Source of the DNA: Escherichia phage EcoIv28_Lewi
DNA length: 48,435 nucleotides
Direction: 5' to 3' (one strand)
Sequence record: OX461087
In this document: positions 1,626 through 44,256 of the stretch, piece by piece
Position numbering within the stretch: position 1 is the stretch's first letter
Layout of the letters: the number at the start of each line of letters is the position of its first letter
The notes under the pieces: generated by a model
Database searches by the model: none
Told to the model about the DNA's origin: nothing
The model's input: only the letters and a program-made list of their open reading frames with translations
Made by a program: the position numbers and the translations under genes

Positions 1626-1664
1626 CAATCTACGTCAATAAGTATTGACTAAATGATGTAGATT
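1626..1664. promoter_or_regulatory. divergent promoter region (TTGACG/TAGATT motifs on both strands)
   Basis: Minus-strand TTGACGTAGATTG and plus-strand TTGACT...TGTAGATTGG sit between divergently oriented gene blocks. Confidence 0.4.
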
Positions 1665-4905: not shown

Positions 4906-4940
4906 TTGACGTAGATTGAGCGGTGGTGCATAGTATCTAC
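4906..4940. promoter_or_regulatory. divergent promoter/operator region
   Basis: TTGACGTAGATTGAG then TAGTAT; contains inverted repeat GTAGAT-N18-ATCTAC; lies between the lysis cassette (minus) and a plus-strand block. Confidence 0.4.
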
Positions 4941-4966
4941 ATCAAGTTATGAGTGAGGAAGAAAAC

Positions 4967-10983: not shown

Positions 10984-11014
10984 AGTGATATCTCCGGTAA
11001 GCCTGATGTAGATT

Positions 11015-11110
11015 ATACTATGCGCTCGGTGTAGATTGGTCAAGTGTGGTGATGCAGGTTTATCAACATTAATAATAAATATTGACGTAGAAATGGTGGT
11101 GATGTAGATT
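11015..11110. promoter_or_regulatory. divergent promoters
   Basis: Minus: TTGACC-N17-TAGTAT (11043..11015); plus: TTGACG-N17-TAGATT (11082..11110); extra TGTAGATT copies nearby. Confidence 0.45.
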
Positions 11111-11145
11111 TAACTAAACCGGAAATTCTTATGTGAGGTGATGAG

Positions 11146-11321
11146 ATGTTTGAAGCATACAAATCAAAAATAACTGGCAGCACATACCTGTTTGCGCCAG
11201 CAAATGGTCTGGTTTTTGTTTGTCGTGGCAAAGACAACACCGATGAAACGAGAATGACAAAAGACGACATAGATATGTATGTCAGAAATGGAGTTATGGA
11301 AGAAGCGGAGTGTCCAGCATG
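11146..11321 (+). CDS. small hypothetical protein (58 aa)
   Basis: ATG after GAGGTGATGAG RBS; coupled by ATGA overlap to next gene. Confidence 0.4.
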
Positions 11322-11501
11322 AGCCATACAAGACCAAGAGTTAACAAAAAAGTAAGAGAAGAGGCAATAGAGCACTTTAAAAGCCACCATGGAAATCACT
11401 CACACGAGGTGATTGTTGGTATAGATGTAGAGAAGATGAAAGAAACCGCAAAACACTACAAAGGAAGGGTTAATCTTGCGGATTATGGAATAGCGGAATA
11501 A
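11319..11501 (+). CDS. small hypothetical protein (60 aa)
   Basis: Track ORF 11310..11501, ATG at 11319. Confidence 0.45.
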   Translation: MSHTRPRVNKKVREEAIEHFKSHHGNHSHEVIVGIDVEKMKETAKHYKGRVNLADYGIAE

Positions 11502-11505
11502 GCAT

Positions 11506-11536
11506 AAGCCCTCGAATGAGGGCTTTATTTTTATCT
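11506..11536. terminator. bidirectional rho-independent terminator
   Basis: Hairpin AAGCCCTC-GAAT-GAGGGCTT plus T-run between convergent genes. Confidence 0.6.
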
Positions 11537-16371: not shown

Positions 16372-16400
16372 AATCTACATCAGTTGCGATTCTACGTCAA
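16372..16400 (-). promoter_or_regulatory. sigma70-like promoter TTGACG-N17-TAGATT
   Basis: Minus-strand -35 TTGACG (16400..16395) and -10 TAGATT (16377..16372), 17-nt spacer, ~30 nt upstream of first ORF. Confidence 0.5.
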
Positions 16401-38686: not shown

Positions 38687-38763
38687 GGACGCGTAGCTTA
38701 ATTGGTTAAAGCAACCGACTCATAATCGGCTGATTGAAGGTTCAAATCCGTCCGTGTCCACCA
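38687..38763 (+). tRNA. tRNA, anticodon CAT (Met, or Ile if lysidine-modified)
   Basis: Hand-folded cloverleaf: acceptor GGACGCG/CGTGTCC, anticodon loop CTCATAA, T-loop TTCAAAT, encoded 3' CCA. Confidence 0.8.
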
Positions 38764-40588: not shown

Positions 40589-41029
40589 TTATAGATTTGA
40601 ATCAGCGAAAAAACGATGGCAACCACGCCAAGAATAATGTCCAATTTCGCCGCCCCATTTAAAAGTGATGGAAAGGATGAACAGATGGATGCCGATAATA
40701 ATAAATGCGTACTGCGCATGAAGCGGCGTTTCTACAGGCGTGATAAATTCCCATACGAATGACTCTATCGCTACCAGCCATTCATAAAGGCTCATCGTCA
40801 GCACGCAGAGCGCCATCTTTGTACTTTTGCGCAGCGCAATAGCCGAAAACAACCAGACCATAGACTGCGCAAGGTAATACAGATATTCGGCGGGAAATGA
40901 ATCAACAAGCACCCATCCAAGATACACAGACATCACCATTGCCGGAATGAACACCAGAAACGCGACCATGCCCGTACAGGCAAAACCCAGCACATACATG
41001 ATCATGATGGCAATATCTGCGCCGAACAT
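40589..41029 (-). CDS. multi-pass membrane protein
   Basis: 146 aa with ~4 hydrophobic helices; preceded by a 39-aa basic Ser/Thr/Gly-rich ORF (~41026..41147) with AGGAGA RBS. Confidence 0.45.
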   Translation of the reverse strand: MFGADIAIMIMYVLGFACTGMVAFLVFIPAMVMSVYLGWVLVDSFPAEYLYYLAQSMVWLFSAIALRKSTKMALCVLTMSLYEWLVAIESFVWEFITPVETPLHAQYAFIIIGIHLFILSITFKWGGEIGHYSWRGCHRFFADSNL

Positions 41030-41195
41030 TATTTTTTACCGCGCGATGGTGAACGAGTGGAACCGTTTGGCTTCACTGCGCCAGTTTTGCCGCCAGTTTT
41101 GGTGTTGCCAGTAGCGCGTGAACGAGACGGCGAATTGGTGGACCCCATGTTTAAATCTCCTGTTGTTTGATTAGCATGATTTTAGCATATTCCTG

Positions 41196-41224
41196 TTGAC
41201 GTAGATTGATGGCGTGTTTATAGT
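41196..41224 (+). promoter_or_regulatory. sigma70-like promoter TTGACG-N17-TATAGT for the accessory island
   Basis: Consensus hexamers; TAGATT motif inside the spacer. Confidence 0.5.
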
Positions 41225-41264
41225 AATGACGTAGAAACAACAATAAATGTTAGAGGTGAGTGAT

Positions 41265-41603
41265 ATGAAAGATGAGTTCAAAGGTACAAAAGGTCCGTGG
41301 CAGGTTTTACCAGAAGAGGTTGATAAGCCATACATCCGAATCAGAGGCACAATTCCTGGTCACAGATACAAGGTGGCAAACGTATTAACTCCTGTTTATG
41401 AAAATGTTCATGCCAGAGAGGCTAATGAAACACGCGCAAACGCAAAGTTAATAGTTGCAGCGCCAGAATTACTCGAAGCACTTCGCCAGCTTCGCGATTA
41501 CGTTGAGGATGTTTGCGCAGTATCGCCTGATGATTGCCATGAAGACCATCCATTAAATCTGGCAAACAAAGCAATCAAGAAAGCATTAGGGAAGAAACAA
41601 TGA
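41265..41603 (+). CDS. hypothetical protein (112 aa), first gene of accessory island
   Basis: Track ORF 41247..41603 trimmed to ATG after GAGGTGAG RBS. Confidence 0.5.
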   Translation: MKDEFKGTKGPWQVLPEEVDKPYIRIRGTIPGHRYKVANVLTPVYENVHAREANETRANAKLIVAAPELLEALRQLRDYVEDVCAVSPDDCHEDHPLNLANKAIKKALGKKQ

Positions 41604-42409
41604 AAACACTAAGCAAAATCTATTCAGACAAAGAAACGCGAAACGGCATCGCTGTTAACAAAACCTATCTCGTGCCAGTGGAGCAAATCTATCTGGAGCC
41701 GGGCTACAACATCCGCGAAGCCGATGAGCAACACGTTGAATATTTCGCGCAGTGCTGGGAATCAGGGCAGCCGTTACCAGCATTAACAGTTATTCCAGAC
41801 GAGAAGGGAATCCGCATTCTTGATGGTCAGCATCGCTACCTCGGCGCACTGCGTGCCATTGAGCGTGGCGCACCAATCGTTCGTATTGAGTGCAAGGACT
41901 TTACTGGAGATGAGGCGGATAAAATCGCCTTCATGGTGTCATCCAGTCAGGGTAAGCAGCTCGACCCATTTGAACGAGCAAAGGCTTATACGCGACTGAA
42001 AGGCTTTGGCTGGACGAATGAAGAAATCGCCAAGAAGGTAGGTCGCTCAGTATCTGACGTGCAAATGCACCTGTCGCTGGGTGATGTGCCAGTGGAAGTA
42101 AAAGCGCGCATCAGTGCGGGACAAATAAGCTATGCAAATGCCGTAGCAGTAACGCGTGAGCATGGTGACGATGCGGTTAAAGTTATCGACGAGGCCGTGG
42201 AAGAGGCGAAGGTGCGAGGCAAGGATAAAGTTACAGCGAAGGTACTAAAGTCGAAAAAGATTAAGCCAGTAGACCGTCTGATTGAGTTATTGAAGCCAGC
42301 AGACCACGTGATTCTTCCTGCCGGTCATGTGGTGGCAGAAGATGAGGAATTTATTCAGATTCCTGTTACTGATATTCACGAGGTTATGGCAATTCTGGAG
42401 AAGATGTGA
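41600..42409 (+). CDS. ParB-like protein (ParB/Srx N-terminal domain plus HTH)
   Basis: Motifs YNIRE and ILDGQHRYLGALRA; HTH-like WTNEEIAKKVGRSVSDV. Confidence 0.75.
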   Translation: MKTLSKIYSDKETRNGIAVNKTYLVPVEQIYLEPGYNIREADEQHVEYFAQCWESGQPLPALTVIPDEKGIRILDGQHRYLGALRAIERGAPIVRIECKDFTGDEADKIAFMVSSSQGKQLDPFERAKAYTRLKGFGWTNEEIAKKVGRSVSDVQMHLSLGDVPVEVKARISAGQISYANAVAVTREHGDDAVKVIDEAVEEAKVRGKDKVTAKVLKSKKIKPVDRLIELLKPADHVILPAGHVVAEDEEFIQIPVTDIHEVMAILEKM

Positions 42410-42600
42410 TGAGTAAGTATGAAGAGTTGGACTTGAAGATATTGCACATGCTTTCCGTTAAACCAACTCTTGTTTTTGATATATGGCTTAAGTTTCGTGA
42501 TGATGTTAGAAACATTACGGTTATTGACAGGAGGATGCAGGCACTGAAAAAGAAAGGTTTTGTTTATAACGTTCGCGGATGTGGTTGGGTTAAGCTATGA
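42406..42600 (+). CDS. hypothetical protein (64 aa)
   Basis: Track ORF, ATGA-coupled. Confidence 0.4.
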   Translation: MMSKYEELDLKILHMLSVKPTLVFDIWLKFRDDVRNITVIDRRMQALKKKGFVYNVRGCGWVKL

Positions 42601-42770
42601 CACCAGAACAATTCATCGAAAAACAACTTCGCATCAAGCTGCCTGACATCGACCAGATGGCAATTGATGCGGCTATTCAGTATTACAAGCGCAATCAGAG
42701 CGCAAAGAAGGGTGGCATTTTTGAAGAATGCCTGAAGGTTGCAAAACAACATATGATTAAGGTGAAGTGA
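42597..42770 (+). CDS. small hypothetical protein (57 aa)
   Basis: ATG..TGA ORF filling the gap, coupled at both ends. Confidence 0.35.
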   Translation: MTPEQFIEKQLRIKLPDIDQMAIDAAIQYYKRNQSAKKGGIFEECLKVAKQHMIKVK

Positions 42771-43306
42771 TGAAACTAAAAATAAGCAAACTATTACTTG
42801 AATCAGCATTAATCTTTCAGGCGCGCAATGATGTGCGTTACTACCTGAACGGCATCTGCTTCATGGCTGATGGTCGCGTAGCATCAACTGACGGGCATCG
42901 CGCATTTATTGGTGGCAGCCATGATAATAAGCTGACAGAAAATGTGATCATCAAGATTAGCAAGTCGCCAACAAAACGCTATGAGTACGCCATCATTGAT
43001 ACCAAGTCGAAAATTGCAACGTATCATGATGAAGCTGGCGCGATGGTTGGTGCTGGTATCTGCGAAGAGATTGATGGTCGATTCCCTGATATTGATCGCG
43101 TGATACCAAAGGAGACGAAAGCAGCAGAGGAAATTGGTTTCAATGCTGGCTATCTGGTTGATATTGAGAAAGTGGCGAAGCTGTTTAATCCTAAATTCTG
43201 TGGTGTTAAATTTGAGCTGAATGGAAATACAAATGCCGCAGTTTGCTGCCTTAGTGCGCCAACAGGCGAGACTGCGAAGATTGTTGTTATGCCTATGCGT
43301 CTGTAG
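42770..43306 (+). CDS. truncated DnaN-like protein (mini beta sliding clamp)
   Basis: Segments NDVRYYLNG, TDGHR, DGRFPD..RVIPK, EIGFN..Y and C-terminal VVMPMRL match E. coli DnaN domain II/III elements as recalled; only 178 aa versus 366. Confidence 0.6.
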   Translation: MKLKISKLLLESALIFQARNDVRYYLNGICFMADGRVASTDGHRAFIGGSHDNKLTENVIIKISKSPTKRYEYAIIDTKSKIATYHDEAGAMVGAGICEEIDGRFPDIDRVIPKETKAAEEIGFNAGYLVDIEKVAKLFNPKFCGVKFELNGNTNAAVCCLSAPTGETAKIVVMPMRL

Positions 43307-43348
43307 CAATCAAAAGACCCTGACTAGGTGTCTTGTTTATAATAAATG

Positions 43349-43377
43349 TTGAAGTAGATACCTAATGACCGCAATAT
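43349..43377 (+). promoter_or_regulatory. candidate internal promoter TTGAAG-N17-CAATAT
   Basis: Read from sequence ~35 nt upstream of the PP-loop gene. Confidence 0.3.
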
Positions 43378-43410
43378 GAGTGATGAAGATATAAGAAAGG
43401 AGCGACGGAC

Positions 43411-44223
43411 ATGAATCAAGTTATTAGCTTTTCAGGCGGTAGAACTTCAGCGTTTATGACGCTGGAGGTACTAAAGATACACCCAGAAGCCGAAATTATC
43501 TTTATGGATACTGGAGCTGAGCACCCAAAAACGTATGAGTTTGTTCGCAACTTCGCAAAGCACTTCAATATCGCTATAACATGTATTCGCGTGGTTCCAA
43601 ATATGCAAATGCGTAAGGCAAGTACGTATGAGCAGCTAACCGTCGATGAGATTGGTCCAGACCTTGAGCCGTGGCGGAGAATGTTGCGTAAGTATGGTCA
43701 TCCATACGTTGGTGGAGCATTCTGCACCGACAGAATGAAGACCGTGCCATTCACTAAATACTGTAATGAAAAATACGGGAAAGGAAACTACGAAAGATGG
43801 CTTGGCATCAGGTCCGATGAACCAAACCGGTTGAAGAACCGAGGTGACGGTTTTCATTACCTTGCAGACATTAGCGACTTTGAAAAGCAGGATATCCTTG
43901 ACTGGTGGTCAATGCAACCATTCGACCTTGGTATTCAGGAGCATCTTGGTAATTGCGTTTTCTGCATCAAGAAGAGCCTGCAGAAAGTTGCACTTGCTGC
44001 AAAGGATGAGCCGGAACTTGCTGCTGAGTTTTGGAAGATGATTCAGGATGAAGATAAAAAATCAGACAAGATAATGTATCGCTCAAACAGAAGTCTTGGC
44101 GACGTTATAGTTTTATTTAACGATGTAAGCAGGGATGAACTGGCATCACGAATGACGTCAATGCGCCAGTACGATACTGGTTCATGCAGCGAGAGTTGCG
44201 AAGCATTTTCTAATGAGAATTAA
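43411..44223 (+). CDS. PAPS-reductase-like PP-loop ATP pyrophosphatase
   Basis: PP-loop SFSGGRTS, CTDRMKTVPF motif, C-terminal Cys cluster. Confidence 0.75.
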   Translation: MNQVISFSGGRTSAFMTLEVLKIHPEAEIIFMDTGAEHPKTYEFVRNFAKHFNIAITCIRVVPNMQMRKASTYEQLTVDEIGPDLEPWRRMLRKYGHPYVGGAFCTDRMKTVPFTKYCNEKYGKGNYERWLGIRSDEPNRLKNRGDGFHYLADISDFEKQDILDWWSMQPFDLGIQEHLGNCVFCIKKSLQKVALAAKDEPELAAEFWKMIQDEDKKSDKIMYRSNRSLGDVIVLFNDVSRDELASRMTSMRQYDTGSCSESCEAFSNEN

Positions 44224-44226
44224 TGA

Positions 44227-44256
44227 CAAGCCCTCAATCGAGGGCTTTATTTATTC
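44227..44256. terminator. bidirectional rho-independent terminator
   Basis: Hairpin AAGCCCTC-AATC-GAGGGCTT plus T-run. Confidence 0.6.

What the first reader, a model, noticed from the sequence alone, without database searches (positions are those of the whole stretch)
41196..44256. Self-contained plus-strand accessory island (ParB-like, mini-clamp, PAPS-reductase-like) inside the morphogenesis region
A ~3-kb block with its own consensus promoter and terminator runs antisense to the flanking capsid and connector operons. It carries six translationally coupled genes: an unknown protein, a full ParB-like protein, two tiny ORFs, the DnaN-derived mini-clamp, and a PP-loop enzyme of the PAPS-reductase / DndC / IbrA type. 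ParB-like plus PAPS-reductase-like pairs (IbrB/IbrA-like) recur in phages and prophages with no established mechanism. The PP-loop chemistry suggests adenylation or sulfur transfer onto nucleic acid, so a DNA-modification or anti-defence role is plausible. Pairing with a clamp mimic is, to my knowledge, undescribed.
Basis: partly seen in the sequence, partly recalled or inferred. Interest (0 to 1): 0.8.

Follow-up and report, generated by a model that had tools for sequence, protein, structure and literature searches.

The report
Phage accessory operon plus mobile NinC gene
The 3-kb block is real, but it is two things joined together: an accessory operon shared by this group of phages (a ParB-like DNA-binding protein plus a cut-down copy of the bacterial sliding clamp), and a separately mobile copy of the old lambda gene ninC, a family that has been linked to evading bacterial DNA-based immunity.

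Summary
The plus-strand block at 41196-44256 exists as described. It sits antisense between head and connector genes of a Skatevirus-like siphophage, but it is composite.

- **Unit 1 (41196-43334).** This is a lineage-conserved operon of five genes with 4-nt overlaps. It is anchored by a ParB-family protein (DGQHR motif plus ParB HTH, with the CTPase motifs lost). It usually also carries a 179-aa DnaN derivative that keeps the beta-clamp peptide-binding pocket but not the ring. In relatives, its variable slots hold DNA methyltransferases, an "anti-restriction" protein and homing endonucleases.
- **Unit 2 (43336-44252).** This is a self-contained cassette with its own promoter, RBS and terminator. 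It encodes a full-length lambda NinC homologue (48% identity). None of 78 other ParB-anchored loci carries it, including the 65 where this slot could be read. In phages AB4P2 and S4lw the same cassette occupies another slot next to the terminase gene. That slot shares the promoter motif and terminator.

The ParB/PAPS-reductase pairing is therefore recent here, not an IbrAB-like system. NinC is often fused to Dam-type methylases. A Vibrio phage NinC-Dam homologue lies in a two-gene segment shown to confer evasion of Dnd, so an anti-defence, DNA-modification reading is reasonable. NinC, the ParB-like protein and the mini-clamp are all unstudied biochemically.

The parts
41196..41224 (+). Promoter of the conserved accessory operon, TTGACG-17-TATAGT.
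   Evidence: One search gives 10 of 12 consensus matches. It lies in the divergent intergenic gap. The region is about 90% conserved in AB4P2.
41197..41235 (+). Two copies of the phage-wide 9-mer TGAYGTAGA. One overlaps the -35 hexamer (41197-41205). The other lies just after the -10 hexamer (41227-41235).
   Evidence: One search finds 18 sites against 6.8 expected, with 0 of 100 shuffles reaching 18. One search shows the layout. The same double copy lies upstream of the ParB gene in relatives.
41265..41603 (+). First gene, of unknown function (phrog_1273). It occupies a variable slot. The likely start is ATG 41265, preceded by a GAGGTG RBS.
   Evidence: It is present in only 29 of 79 relatives. 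Elsewhere the slot holds phrog_14587 "anti-restriction protein" or phrog_2260.
41600..42409 (+). ParB-family protein. It has an N-terminal ParB/Srx-type domain with a DGQHR motif, followed by a ParB HTH. It is the conserved anchor of the operon.
   Evidence: Pfam HTH_ParB 3.3e-11. phrog_1033 2e-89. Spo0J 1vz0 6.8e-13, with GERRYRAA aligned to GQHRYLGA and ENLQR aligned to SSSQG. Used as the query that retrieved all 79 loci, so its presence there is by construction.
42406..42600 (+). A 64-aa ORF (phrog_7185) in the variable slot after the ParB gene.
   Evidence: It is present in 7 of 79 relatives. In others this slot holds an N6_N4 MTase, a C5 MTase, an EndoVII/HNH or nothing.
42597..42770 (+). 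A conserved 57-aa ORF of unknown function (phrog_4439).
   Evidence: It is present in 72 of 79 relatives. Its QLRIKL stretch is not conserved.
42767..43306 (+). A 179-aa DnaN-derived "mini-clamp". It corresponds to beta domain II plus the pocket-forming parts of domain III. It has no domain I.
   Evidence: phmmer aligns it to E. coli beta residues 136-289 and 315-366. AF2 gives pLDDT 97. The top Foldseek hit is E. coli DnaN. The near-invariant family residues map to beta R152, Y154, L155, T172, G174, H175, P242, M362 and P363. More than 130 clusters at 50% identity are 165-220 aa long.
43314..43334 (+). A weak bulged hairpin after the mini-clamp gene. It sits where relatives have the strong operon terminator.
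   Evidence: It folds at -7.8 kcal/mol, against -13.5 kcal/mol at the same place in AB4P2.
43336..44252 (+). The mobile NinC cassette, acquired as a unit. It comprises an A/T-rich upstream element, a promoter, an RBS, the gene and a terminator.
   Evidence: It is 91.4% identical over 920 nt to AB4P2 L002 3926-4844, which lies in a different slot between terL and the portal-side genes. It is absent at this position in the other 207 GenBank relatives and in the 65 other IMG/VR loci where the slot could be read.
43349..43377 (+). The cassette's own promoter-like element, TTGAAG-17-CAATAT. A TGAAGTAGA motif copy lies at the -35 hexamer and TGATGAAGA lies after the -10 hexamer.
   Evidence: The AB4P2 copy reads TTGACG-17-TAACAT.
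43397..43402 (+). AAGGAG ribosome-binding site, 8 nt upstream of the ninC ATG.
43411..44223 (+). A lambda NinC-family protein with a PAPS-reductase-like PP-loop. It carries SGGRTS, a DTG motif, invariant C105, C118 and C182xxC185, and near-invariant C259xxxC263.
   Evidence: It is 48% identical to lambda NinC end to end (E 8e-92). Pfam PAPS_reduct 2.6e-10. phrog_33262 9e-103. PADLOC SspD 9.7e-13 and BrxP 7e-7. AF2 gives pLDDT 89, and the best folds are APS and PAPS reductases at TM 0.4-0.5.
44228..44247 (+). Intrinsic terminator of the cassette and the end of the block, AAGCCCTCAATCGAGGGCTT followed by a T-run.
   Evidence: -13.6 kcal/mol, z = -5.0. It is nearly identical to the terminator of the second plus-strand slot at 11506-11530.

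Best explanation
The block is a composite accessory, counter-defence-type region of a Skatevirus-like lytic siphophage. It is not a single six-gene system.

**Unit 1 (41196-43334).** This is a promoter-to-terminator operon conserved across the lineage.
- It is anchored by a ParB-family DNA-binding protein that has lost the canonical CTPase residues.
- It has several swappable gene slots.
- In about 70% of relatives it also encodes a roughly 180-aa DnaN derivative. This protein keeps the hydrophobic pocket that binds clamp-binding motifs but cannot form the beta ring. I infer that it captures or recruits host proteins bearing clamp-binding motifs, such as Pol III alpha or delta, Hda, or repair proteins.

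**Unit 2 (43336-44252).** This is a moron cassette with its own promoter, RBS and terminator. It encodes a lambda NinC homologue.
- It reached the 3' end of unit 1 by recombination between promoter-motif and terminator sequences. The phage's two antisense cargo slots share those sequences.
- I infer that NinC is an ATP-using (PP-loop), cysteine- or Fe-S-dependent enzyme that acts on phage DNA or on the sulfur-transfer step of phosphorothioate systems.
- On that reading, it helps the phage escape modification-dependent restriction of the Dnd/Ssp/BREX-4 type. Methylases in the neighbouring slots of relatives would help against conventional restriction-modification systems in the same way.

**Shown here:** the anatomy, the homologies, the cassette mobility, the lack of conserved ParB-NinC linkage, the NinC-methylase fusions and the pocket conservation.

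**Inferred:** the chemistry of NinC, the binding partners of the mini-clamp, the DNA targets of the ParB-like protein and the timing of expression.
For: **Composite structure**
- Homology to relatives stops about 34 nt after the mini-clamp stop codon and resumes in the terminator.
- The intervening 917 nt are 91% identical to a cassette in another slot of AB4P2. An 82%-identical protein sits in the corresponding slot of Jerseyvirus S4lw.
- The window's own second slot (11083-11530) has the same promoter motif and a near-identical terminator.

**Conservation of unit 1**
- Among the 79 loci retrieved with the ParB protein, the 57-aa gene is present in 72, the mini-clamp in 55 and NinC in 1.

**Cargo in relatives**
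- N6_N4 MTase 5.6e-32, C5 MTase 1.8e-22 and Endonuclease VII 6e-24.
- phrog_14587 "anti-restriction protein".
- The same picture appears in GenBank annotations.

**NinC**
- It is 48% identical to lambda NinC.
- At least 9 of 78 family loci are fusions to Dam or D12 methylases.
- It hits SspD and BrxP in PADLOC.
- A Vibrio phage NinC-Dam homologue lies in a two-gene segment that confers Dnd evasion. A 2026 preprint cites this as PAPS-reductase-mediated Dnd evasion.

**Mini-clamp**
-.

**ParB-like protein**
- The CTPase motifs are replaced. DGQHR-type ParB folds can bind ATP or GTP.
Against: - No experiment addresses any of these six proteins in this phage group.
- Lambda ninC is dispensable and has no assigned function.
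- In the Vibrio experiment two genes were transferred together and the PAPS domain was fused to Dam. The contribution of the NinC-like domain alone is therefore unproven.
- The window encodes no methylase of the tested families that could partner NinC.
- One distant contig, L084, has ParB, a 72-aa gene and NinC adjacent to one another. Two further NinC loci have this type of ParB within 4 kb. A loose functional link therefore cannot be excluded.
- Skatevirus-group phages are reported as markedly sensitive to RM systems, so the island is not a broad shield.
- Pocket conservation in the mini-clamp shows constraint. It does not identify what binds there.
Confidence: 0.6

Rival explanations
1. The ParB-like protein and the PAPS-reductase-like protein form an IbrB/IbrA-like or DndB/DndC-like two-component system, and the clamp mimic is a third partner. 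ParB would target the PP-loop enzyme to DNA.
For: - The two genes lie in one plus-strand block in the window.
- The distant contig L084 has ParB (phrog_1033), a 72-aa gene and NinC adjacent in one operon.
- Two of 80 NinC loci have this type of ParB within 4 kb.
- The ParB-like protein carries the DGQHR motif typical of DndB-type proteins (TIGR03187 at E 0.0075, below the cut-off).
Against: - None of the 65 other Skatevirus-like loci where this slot could be read has NinC at it.
- The cassette has its own promoter and terminator. In AB4P2 it sits about 15 kb from the ParB gene.
- Lambda and P22 NinC lie in nin regions that have no ParB annotated.
- NinC's recurrent fusion partner is a DNA adenine methylase, not ParB.
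- There is no DUF3440 domain.
Confidence: 0.12
2. The PP-loop gene is an auxiliary metabolic gene. On this view it is a true PAPS/APS reductase that boosts host sulfate assimilation during infection, and the rest of the block is a replication or partition module.
For: - Pfam PAPS_reduct is matched above its gathering score.
- The closest solved folds are APS and PAPS reductases.
- Phage "PAPS reductases" are widely annotated as AMGs.
- A distant mini-clamp homologue sits next to primase and helicase genes.
Against: - All the sulfonucleotide-reductase NCBIfam models are hit at 19-27 bits, against cut-offs of 154-254 bits.
- TM-scores are only 0.4-0.5, at 18-20% identity.
- The C-terminal catalytic ECGLH-type motif is replaced by GSCSESCE. 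The protein also has a canonical SGGRTS PP-loop, which true CysH lacks. The sequence comes; the CysH motif is from my own knowledge.
- Fusions to DNA methylases and the anti-Dnd result point to DNA rather than sulfate.
- The phage group is lytic, so partition is unnecessary.
Confidence: 0.08
3. The ParB-like protein is the phage's transcription regulator, acting in a KorB- or VirB-like way. On this view it binds the TGAYGTAGA motif found at most intergenic promoters, including its own and that of ninC. The operon would then be mainly regulatory, with passenger genes. This partly overlaps the best explanation.
For: - The motif is enriched, at 18 sites against 6.8 expected. It is clustered at promoters across the genome, with two copies bracketing the operon's -10 hexamer.
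- The protein has a ParB/KorB-type HTH (Pfam KorB 9.4e-5).
- Some depositors annotate it as a transcriptional regulator.
Against: - There is no evidence for which protein binds the motif.
- The motif overlaps -35 (TTGACG) and -10-like (TAGATT) positions, so it may simply be promoter sequence.
- No parS-like palindrome occurs in or near the operon.
- Distant ParB homologue loci lack the motif, although this is uninformative if DNA specificity differs.
Confidence: 0.2

Closest known systems
Lambda NinC (nin region; P22-like and Stx-phage NinC)
   Same: The window protein is a full-length homologue, 48% identical to lambda NinC and 68% to P22-like NinC. It has the same PP-loop and cysteine motifs. 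Like lambda NinC it is stand-alone and about 270-290 aa long.
   Different: Here it is carried as a self-contained, antisense moron cassette in the morphogenesis region of a lytic siphophage. In lambda it lies within the delayed-early nin operon. The function of lambda NinC is also unknown, and the gene is dispensable.
Vibrio phage 44E38.1 p0018 (PAPS-reductase domain fused to Dam), part of an anti-Dnd determinant (Piel et al., bioRxiv 10.1101/2021.05.05.442762)
   Same: It is 52.5% identical over the whole 270 aa (H57). It belongs to the same family (phrog_33262).
   Different: The Vibrio protein carries a C-terminal Dam domain and was tested together with a second gene. The window protein has no methylase domain, and no methylase of the tested families was found in the genome.
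DndC / SspD / BrxP (PAPS-reductase-like enzymes of phosphorothioate DNA modification)
   Same: They share the PP-loop fold. PADLOC gives SspD 9.7e-13 and BrxP 7e-7. Conserved cysteines are compatible with an Fe-S or persulfide site, which is an inference.
   Different: Only the N-terminal half aligns (SspD profile positions 2-122 of 277). No DndD/DndE or SspB/SspC partners are present. The window protein is much shorter than BrxP.
IbrA/IbrB (E. coli PAPS-reductase-like plus ParB-like pair)
   Same: A PAPS_reduct-domain gene and a ParB-fold gene lie in one block.
   Different: There is no DUF3440 domain. The adjacency is not conserved. The ParB-like protein here has a full ParB HTH.
E. coli DnaN (beta sliding clamp)
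   Same: The fold is the same and the sequence is clearly related (E 2.5e-12). The peptide-binding pocket residues are conserved.
   Different: The protein is 179 aa against 366 aa. It lacks domain I and much of domain III, so the head-to-tail dimer ring cannot form. It scores below the dnaN equivalog cut-off (35.5 against 137.65 bits).
ParB/Spo0J, KorB, Noc and DndB-type (DGQHR) ParB-fold proteins
   Same: It has an N-terminal ParB/Srx-type domain plus a ParB HTH. It aligns to Spo0J, Noc and KorB structures.
   Different: The GERRxRA and ENLQR CTPase motifs are replaced by GQHRYLG and SSSQG. It scores below the TIGR00180 cut-off. No ParA or parS is evident. It is encoded by a lytic phage.

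Membership tests
Lambda NinC family | End-to-end homology to lambda NinC | tested here: met
   BLASTP gives 48% identity, E 8e-92, over residues 1-269 against 1-280. It is 68% identical to P22-like NinC.
Lambda NinC family | Family-invariant motifs (SGGRTS PP-loop, MDTG, C105, C118, C182xxC185) | tested here: met
   These columns are invariant in alignments of 15 and 53 sequences that include the window protein.
Assimilatory PAPS/APS reductase (CysH) | Score above the curated NCBIfam cut-offs for cysH, PAPS reductase or APS reductase | tested here: not met
   Scores are 19-27 bits against cut-offs of 154-254 bits. Foldseek TM is 0.4-0.5 at 18-20% identity.
Assimilatory PAPS/APS reductase (CysH) | C-terminal catalytic Cys in an ECGLH-type motif (motif recalled from my own knowledge) | tested here: not met
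   The C-terminus reads DTGSCSESCEAF.
DndC / SspD (phosphorothioation PP-loop enzyme) | Full-length profile match | tested here: inconclusive
   PADLOC SspD gives 9.7e-13 but covers only profile positions 2-122 of 277. No DndC model is listed at E <= 0.01 in NCBIfam or PADLOC.
DndC / SspD (phosphorothioation PP-loop enzyme) | Partner genes (DndD/DndE or SspB/SspC) in the same locus | tested here: not met
   The neighbours are the ParB-like gene, small ORFs, the mini-clamp and head genes.
IbrA/IbrB-like pair | PAPS_reduct domain followed by DUF3440 in the IbrA-like protein | tested here: not met
   Pfam lists only PAPS_reduct, plus a weak LigXa_C hit.
IbrA/IbrB-like pair | Conserved adjacency of the ParB-fold gene and the PAPS-reductase-like gene | tested here: not met
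   One of 79 ParB loci and 2 of 80 NinC loci show proximity. The cassette is found elsewhere in AB4P2 and S4lw.
Canonical ParB (CTP-dependent partition protein) | ParB HTH domain | tested here: met
   PF17762 scores 43.7 bits against a cut-off of 22.6.
Canonical ParB (CTP-dependent partition protein) | GERRxRA (Box II) and ENLQR (Box III) CTP-binding and hydrolysis motifs | tested here: not met
   In the alignment to Spo0J 1vz0, GERRYRAA aligns to GQHRYLGA and ENLQR aligns to SSSQG. TIGR00180 scores 37.8 bits against a cut-off of 58.45.
Canonical ParB (CTP-dependent partition protein) | ParA partner and parS site | tested here: inconclusive
   There is no ParA-like gene in the block and no palindromic site in or near it. 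The whole genome was not scanned for ParA.
DnaN beta sliding clamp | Three-domain subunit able to form a head-to-tail dimer ring | tested here: not met
   The 179 aa align only to beta residues 136-289 and 315-366. TIGR00663 scores 35.5 bits against a cut-off of 137.65.
DnaN beta sliding clamp | Residues of the hydrophobic peptide-binding pocket (residue list recalled from my own knowledge) | tested here: met
   R24, Y26, L27, T41, G43, H44, P107, M175 and P176 map to beta R152, Y154, L155, T172, G174, H175, P242, M362 and P363. They are at least 90% conserved across 134 family members.
Phage moron (autonomous cargo cassette) | Own promoter and terminator, variable presence among close relatives, and different insertion sites | tested here: met
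   Promoter activity itself was not tested.

The most novel reading that the evidence does not exclude
The roughly 180-aa DnaN-derived proteins form a widespread but unstudied family, with more than 130 clusters at 50% identity. They may be ring-less "pocket-only" mimics of the beta clamp that capture host proteins bearing clamp-binding motifs. They could do this either to hijack Pol III for phages that lack their own polymerase, or to disable host replication and repair. Stand-alone NinC may install or mimic a phosphorothioate-type DNA backbone mark, using host sulfur-transfer proteins, to evade Dnd/Ssp-type immunity. That would finally give lambda NinC a function.
Probability: 0.25. Interest if true: 0.8.

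Novelty: new member of a known kind. Interest (0 to 1): 0.45.

Why it matters
- **What the result changes.** An apparently exotic six-gene system is in fact a conserved cargo-carrying operon plus a hopping ninC cassette. This removes the main novelty claim, the IbrAB-like pairing with a clamp mimic.
- **Lambda ninC.** The gene has had no function for about 40 years, and phage "PAPS reductases" are still argued over as metabolic or anti-defence genes. A stand-alone, self-promoted NinC in a small lytic E. coli/Salmonella-type phage would be a clean test bed. Closely related phages that lack the gene are already isolated, such as the BASEL phages Bas77-81.
- **The mini-clamp.** It keeps exactly the beta-clamp pocket that antibiotics such as griselimycin target. 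A natural pocket-only mimic would be of interest for replication biology.
- **Cargo exchange.** The shared promoter and terminator "arms" explain how cargo moves between slots in this phage group.

Tried and rejected
1. **The 57-aa protein as a clamp-binding-motif partner of the mini-clamp.** Its QLRIKL stretch resembles Hda- or Pol IV-type motifs, but the Q is replaced by N in the relatives at about 80% identity. I rejected the idea.
2. **A parS-like palindrome or repeat array in the block.** Only chance-level short matches were found.
3. **A methylase partner for NinC in the window.** tblastn with Dam, D12, N6_N4 and C5 methylases found nothing.
4. **A second ninC copy in the window.** None was found.
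5. **PADLOC matches for the other five proteins.** None were found.
6. **A Pfam survey of all NinC neighbours through one large alignment.** I abandoned this because the sequence list was truncated in output. I used a phmmer search with three ParB queries and inspection of the largest neighbour clusters instead. By my reading of their sequences these look like typical lambdoid early genes; this reading was not confirmed by profile search. ParB-fold proteins too distant for phmmer could therefore have been missed.
7. **A conserved ParB/mini-clamp link beyond this lineage.** Three distant mini-clamp homologues were checked. One informative contig shows primase, helicase and Dam neighbours and no ParB. 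The other two contigs were too short to judge.
8. **Literature on truncated phage beta clamps.** Nothing relevant was found.

Full report
**What the window is.**

The window is a siphophage genome of about 48 kb. It is a mosaic, roughly 90% identical at the DNA level to Salmonella, Escherichia and Shigella phages of the Skatevirus cluster (Skate, swi2, Sf11, C1, DS8, ZK22, and BASEL phages Bas78 and Bas80). [quoted passage not shown]

**Checking the observation.**

- Plus-strand ORFs lie at 41265(41247)-41603, 41600-42409, 42406-42600, 42597-42770, 42767-43306 and 43411-44223. They sit between minus-strand connector-side genes (up to 41148) and a minus-strand 73-aa gene plus the major capsid gene (from 44251).
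- The best sigma-70-like site in 6.5 kb, TTGACG-17-TATAGT, lies at 41196-41224 in the divergent gap. Promoter-like hits in general are not enriched there.
- The terminator at 44228-44247 is strong, at -13.6 kcal/mol with z = -5.
- The first five genes overlap by 4 nt.
- The sixth gene does not overlap. It follows a 104-nt spacer that contains a weak bulged hairpin (-7.8 kcal/mol), an A/T-rich stretch, TTGAAG-17-CAATAT and an AAGGAG RBS.

**The block is composite.**

- Related genomes match the block only up to about 43340, and match again from the terminator onward.
- In AB4P2 the mini-clamp stop codon is followed directly by the terminator.
- The extra 917 nt (43336-44252) are 91.4% identical to a cassette in AB4P2. 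That cassette lies between the terminase large subunit gene and the portal-side genes, also antisense, about 15 kb from the ParB gene.
- Jerseyvirus S4lw has an 82%-identical protein in the corresponding slot.
- The window's own copy of that second slot (11083-11530) holds two small ORFs. They are driven by the same promoter type and end at AAGCCCTCGAATGAGGGCTT plus a T-run. This is almost the same as the island terminator.
- Shared promoter and terminator sequences therefore provide homology arms for moving cargo between slots. This is an inference.

**Comparative survey of the conserved operon.**

I retrieved 79 IMG/VR loci using the ParB-like protein as the query. The counts below are lower bounds, because some loci are cut by contig ends.

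| Gene | Loci with the gene (of 79) |
|---|---|
| ParB-like protein | 79 (the query) |
| 57-aa gene | 72 |
| Mini-clamp | 55 |
| First gene (phrog_1273) | 29 |
| 64-aa gene | 7 |
| NinC | 1 |

- The slot after the ParB gene holds N6_N4 methylases, C5 methylases, an Endonuclease VII-domain protein or an HNH endonuclease.
- The first slot holds phrog_14587 "anti-restriction protein" or phrog_2260.
- The mini-clamp is sometimes replaced by unrelated small proteins.
- The operon is thus a conserved scaffold with swappable cargo, much of it related to restriction evasion.

**The PP-loop protein is NinC.**

- It is 48% identical to lambda NinC end to end (E 8e-92) and 68% identical to P22-like NinC.
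- Lambda ninC is dispensable and has no assigned function.
- The family invariants are SGGRTS, MDTG, C105, C118 and C182xxC185. C259xxxC263 is nearly invariant.
- It is not CysH. The NCBIfam scores are far below the cut-offs, and Foldseek TM-scores to APS and PAPS reductases are only 0.4-0.5.
- It has no DUF3440 domain, so it is not IbrA-like.
- PADLOC gives partial matches to SspD (9.7e-13) and BrxP (7e-7).
- Of 78 NinC-family loci from IMG/VR, at least 9 are fusions to Dam or D12 methylases. One of these is a triple fusion of a C5 methylase, NinC and a D12 methylase.
- The Vibrio phage 44E38.1 protein p0018 has a PAPS domain fused to Dam and is 52.5% identical to the window protein. Together with a neighbouring gene, it converted a Dnd-sensitive phage into a Dnd-resistant one. 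A 2026 preprint cites this as PAPS-reductase-mediated Dnd evasion. Other authors still read phage PAPS reductases as metabolic genes.

**Testing the ParB-NinC pairing.**

- Only 2 of 80 NinC loci carry a phrog_1033-type ParB within 4 kb.
- Only 1 of 79 ParB loci carries NinC. This is L084, a distant contig in which ParB, a 72-aa gene and NinC are adjacent.
- The pairing in the window is therefore a recent juxtaposition. A weak recurrent association cannot be excluded with these numbers.

**The ParB-like protein.**

- It aligns to Spo0J, Noc and KorB structures over the N-terminal domain and the HTH.
- GERRYRAA is replaced by GQHRYLGA and ENLQR by SSSQG. It scores below the TIGR00180 cut-off.
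- It carries the DGQHR motif. A recent survey reports that ParB folds of the DndB type bind ATP or GTP rather than CTP.
- Its DNA target is unknown.
- A 9-mer, TGAYGTAGA, is enriched in the genome (18 sites against 6.8 expected) and clusters at intergenic promoters. These include both promoters of the block, and the arrangement is conserved in relatives. Whether this is an operator or simply promoter sequence is open.

**The mini-clamp.**

- phmmer aligns it to E. coli beta residues 136-289 and 315-366.
- AlphaFold2 with a 134-sequence alignment gives pLDDT 97, and Foldseek returns E. coli DnaN first.
- The family is large and old. In a search of 1.84 billion representatives, 133 of the best 150 clusters are 165-220 aa long.
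- The residues that are at least 90% conserved map onto beta R152, Y154, L155, T172, G174, H175, P242, M362 and P363. From my own knowledge of the beta-clamp literature, these line the pocket that binds clamp-binding motifs.
- Domain I is absent, so the ring cannot form.
- A distant member sits beside primase, helicase and Dam genes, with no ParB nearby.
- I infer a pocket-only adaptor or decoy, but nothing here shows what it binds.

**Verdict.**

It is wrong on the IbrAB-like functional pairing and on the block being a single unit.
- The parts are members of known but uncharacterised families.
- The only feature unique to this window is that the NinC cassette sits in this slot.

Noticed in passing
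window 1629-1662, 4907-4944, 11004-11108, 16374-16399, 23296, 36053, 36523, 41197-41235, 43350: A 9-mer, TGAYGTAGA, is enriched (18 sites with up to 1 mismatch, against 6.8 expected). It clusters in pairs at intergenic promoters. It often appears as TTGACGTAGA-N8-TGATGTAGAT, so that it covers both the -35 and a -10-like TAGATT. This could be a phage-specific promoter class or the operator of an unknown regulator.
   Followed up: partly
window 11083-11530: A second antisense plus-strand cargo slot lies between the portal-side genes and terL. It has the motif promoter, two small ORFs (58 aa with no PHROG match; 63 aa matching phrog_12120) and a terminator nearly identical to the one at 44228-44247. 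The NinC cassette occupies this slot in AB4P2 and S4lw.
   Followed up: partly
window 41029-41148 (minus strand): A 39-aa, very basic, Ser/Thr/Gly/Lys-rich ORF (MGSTNSPSRSRATGNTKTGGKTG...) lies next to the island promoter. It is 79-100% conserved in 31 related loci. Its function is unknown.
   Followed up: no
window 40589-41029 (minus strand): A 146-aa hydrophobic protein (phrog_14688, labelled "lipoprotein") looks like a multi-pass membrane protein. It sits between the connector genes and the island and may be another moron.
   Followed up: no
window 38687-38763: There is a single tRNA-Met (CAT) gene on the plus strand. Relatives carry tRNA-Met or tRNA-Ile at the corresponding place.
   Followed up: no
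L015, L019, L035, L045-L049 and about 20 other related loci, between the mini-clamp gene and the 73-aa gene: Many relatives (28 loci) carry an extra minus-strand gene of 276-291 aa, with no Pfam match, between the operon terminator and the head genes. The window lacks it. This junction is therefore a hotspot for insertions on both strands.
   Followed up: no
L059 3264-3980: One relative carries a second, divergent ParB-like gene (phrog_1033, E 2.4e-14) immediately upstream of the conserved one.
   Followed up: no
L100 2402-5701: A 1099-aa ORF fuses a C5 cytosine methylase, a NinC-like PAPS_reduct domain and a D12 adenine methylase in one polypeptide. This is the strongest architectural hint that NinC acts on DNA.
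   Followed up: partly
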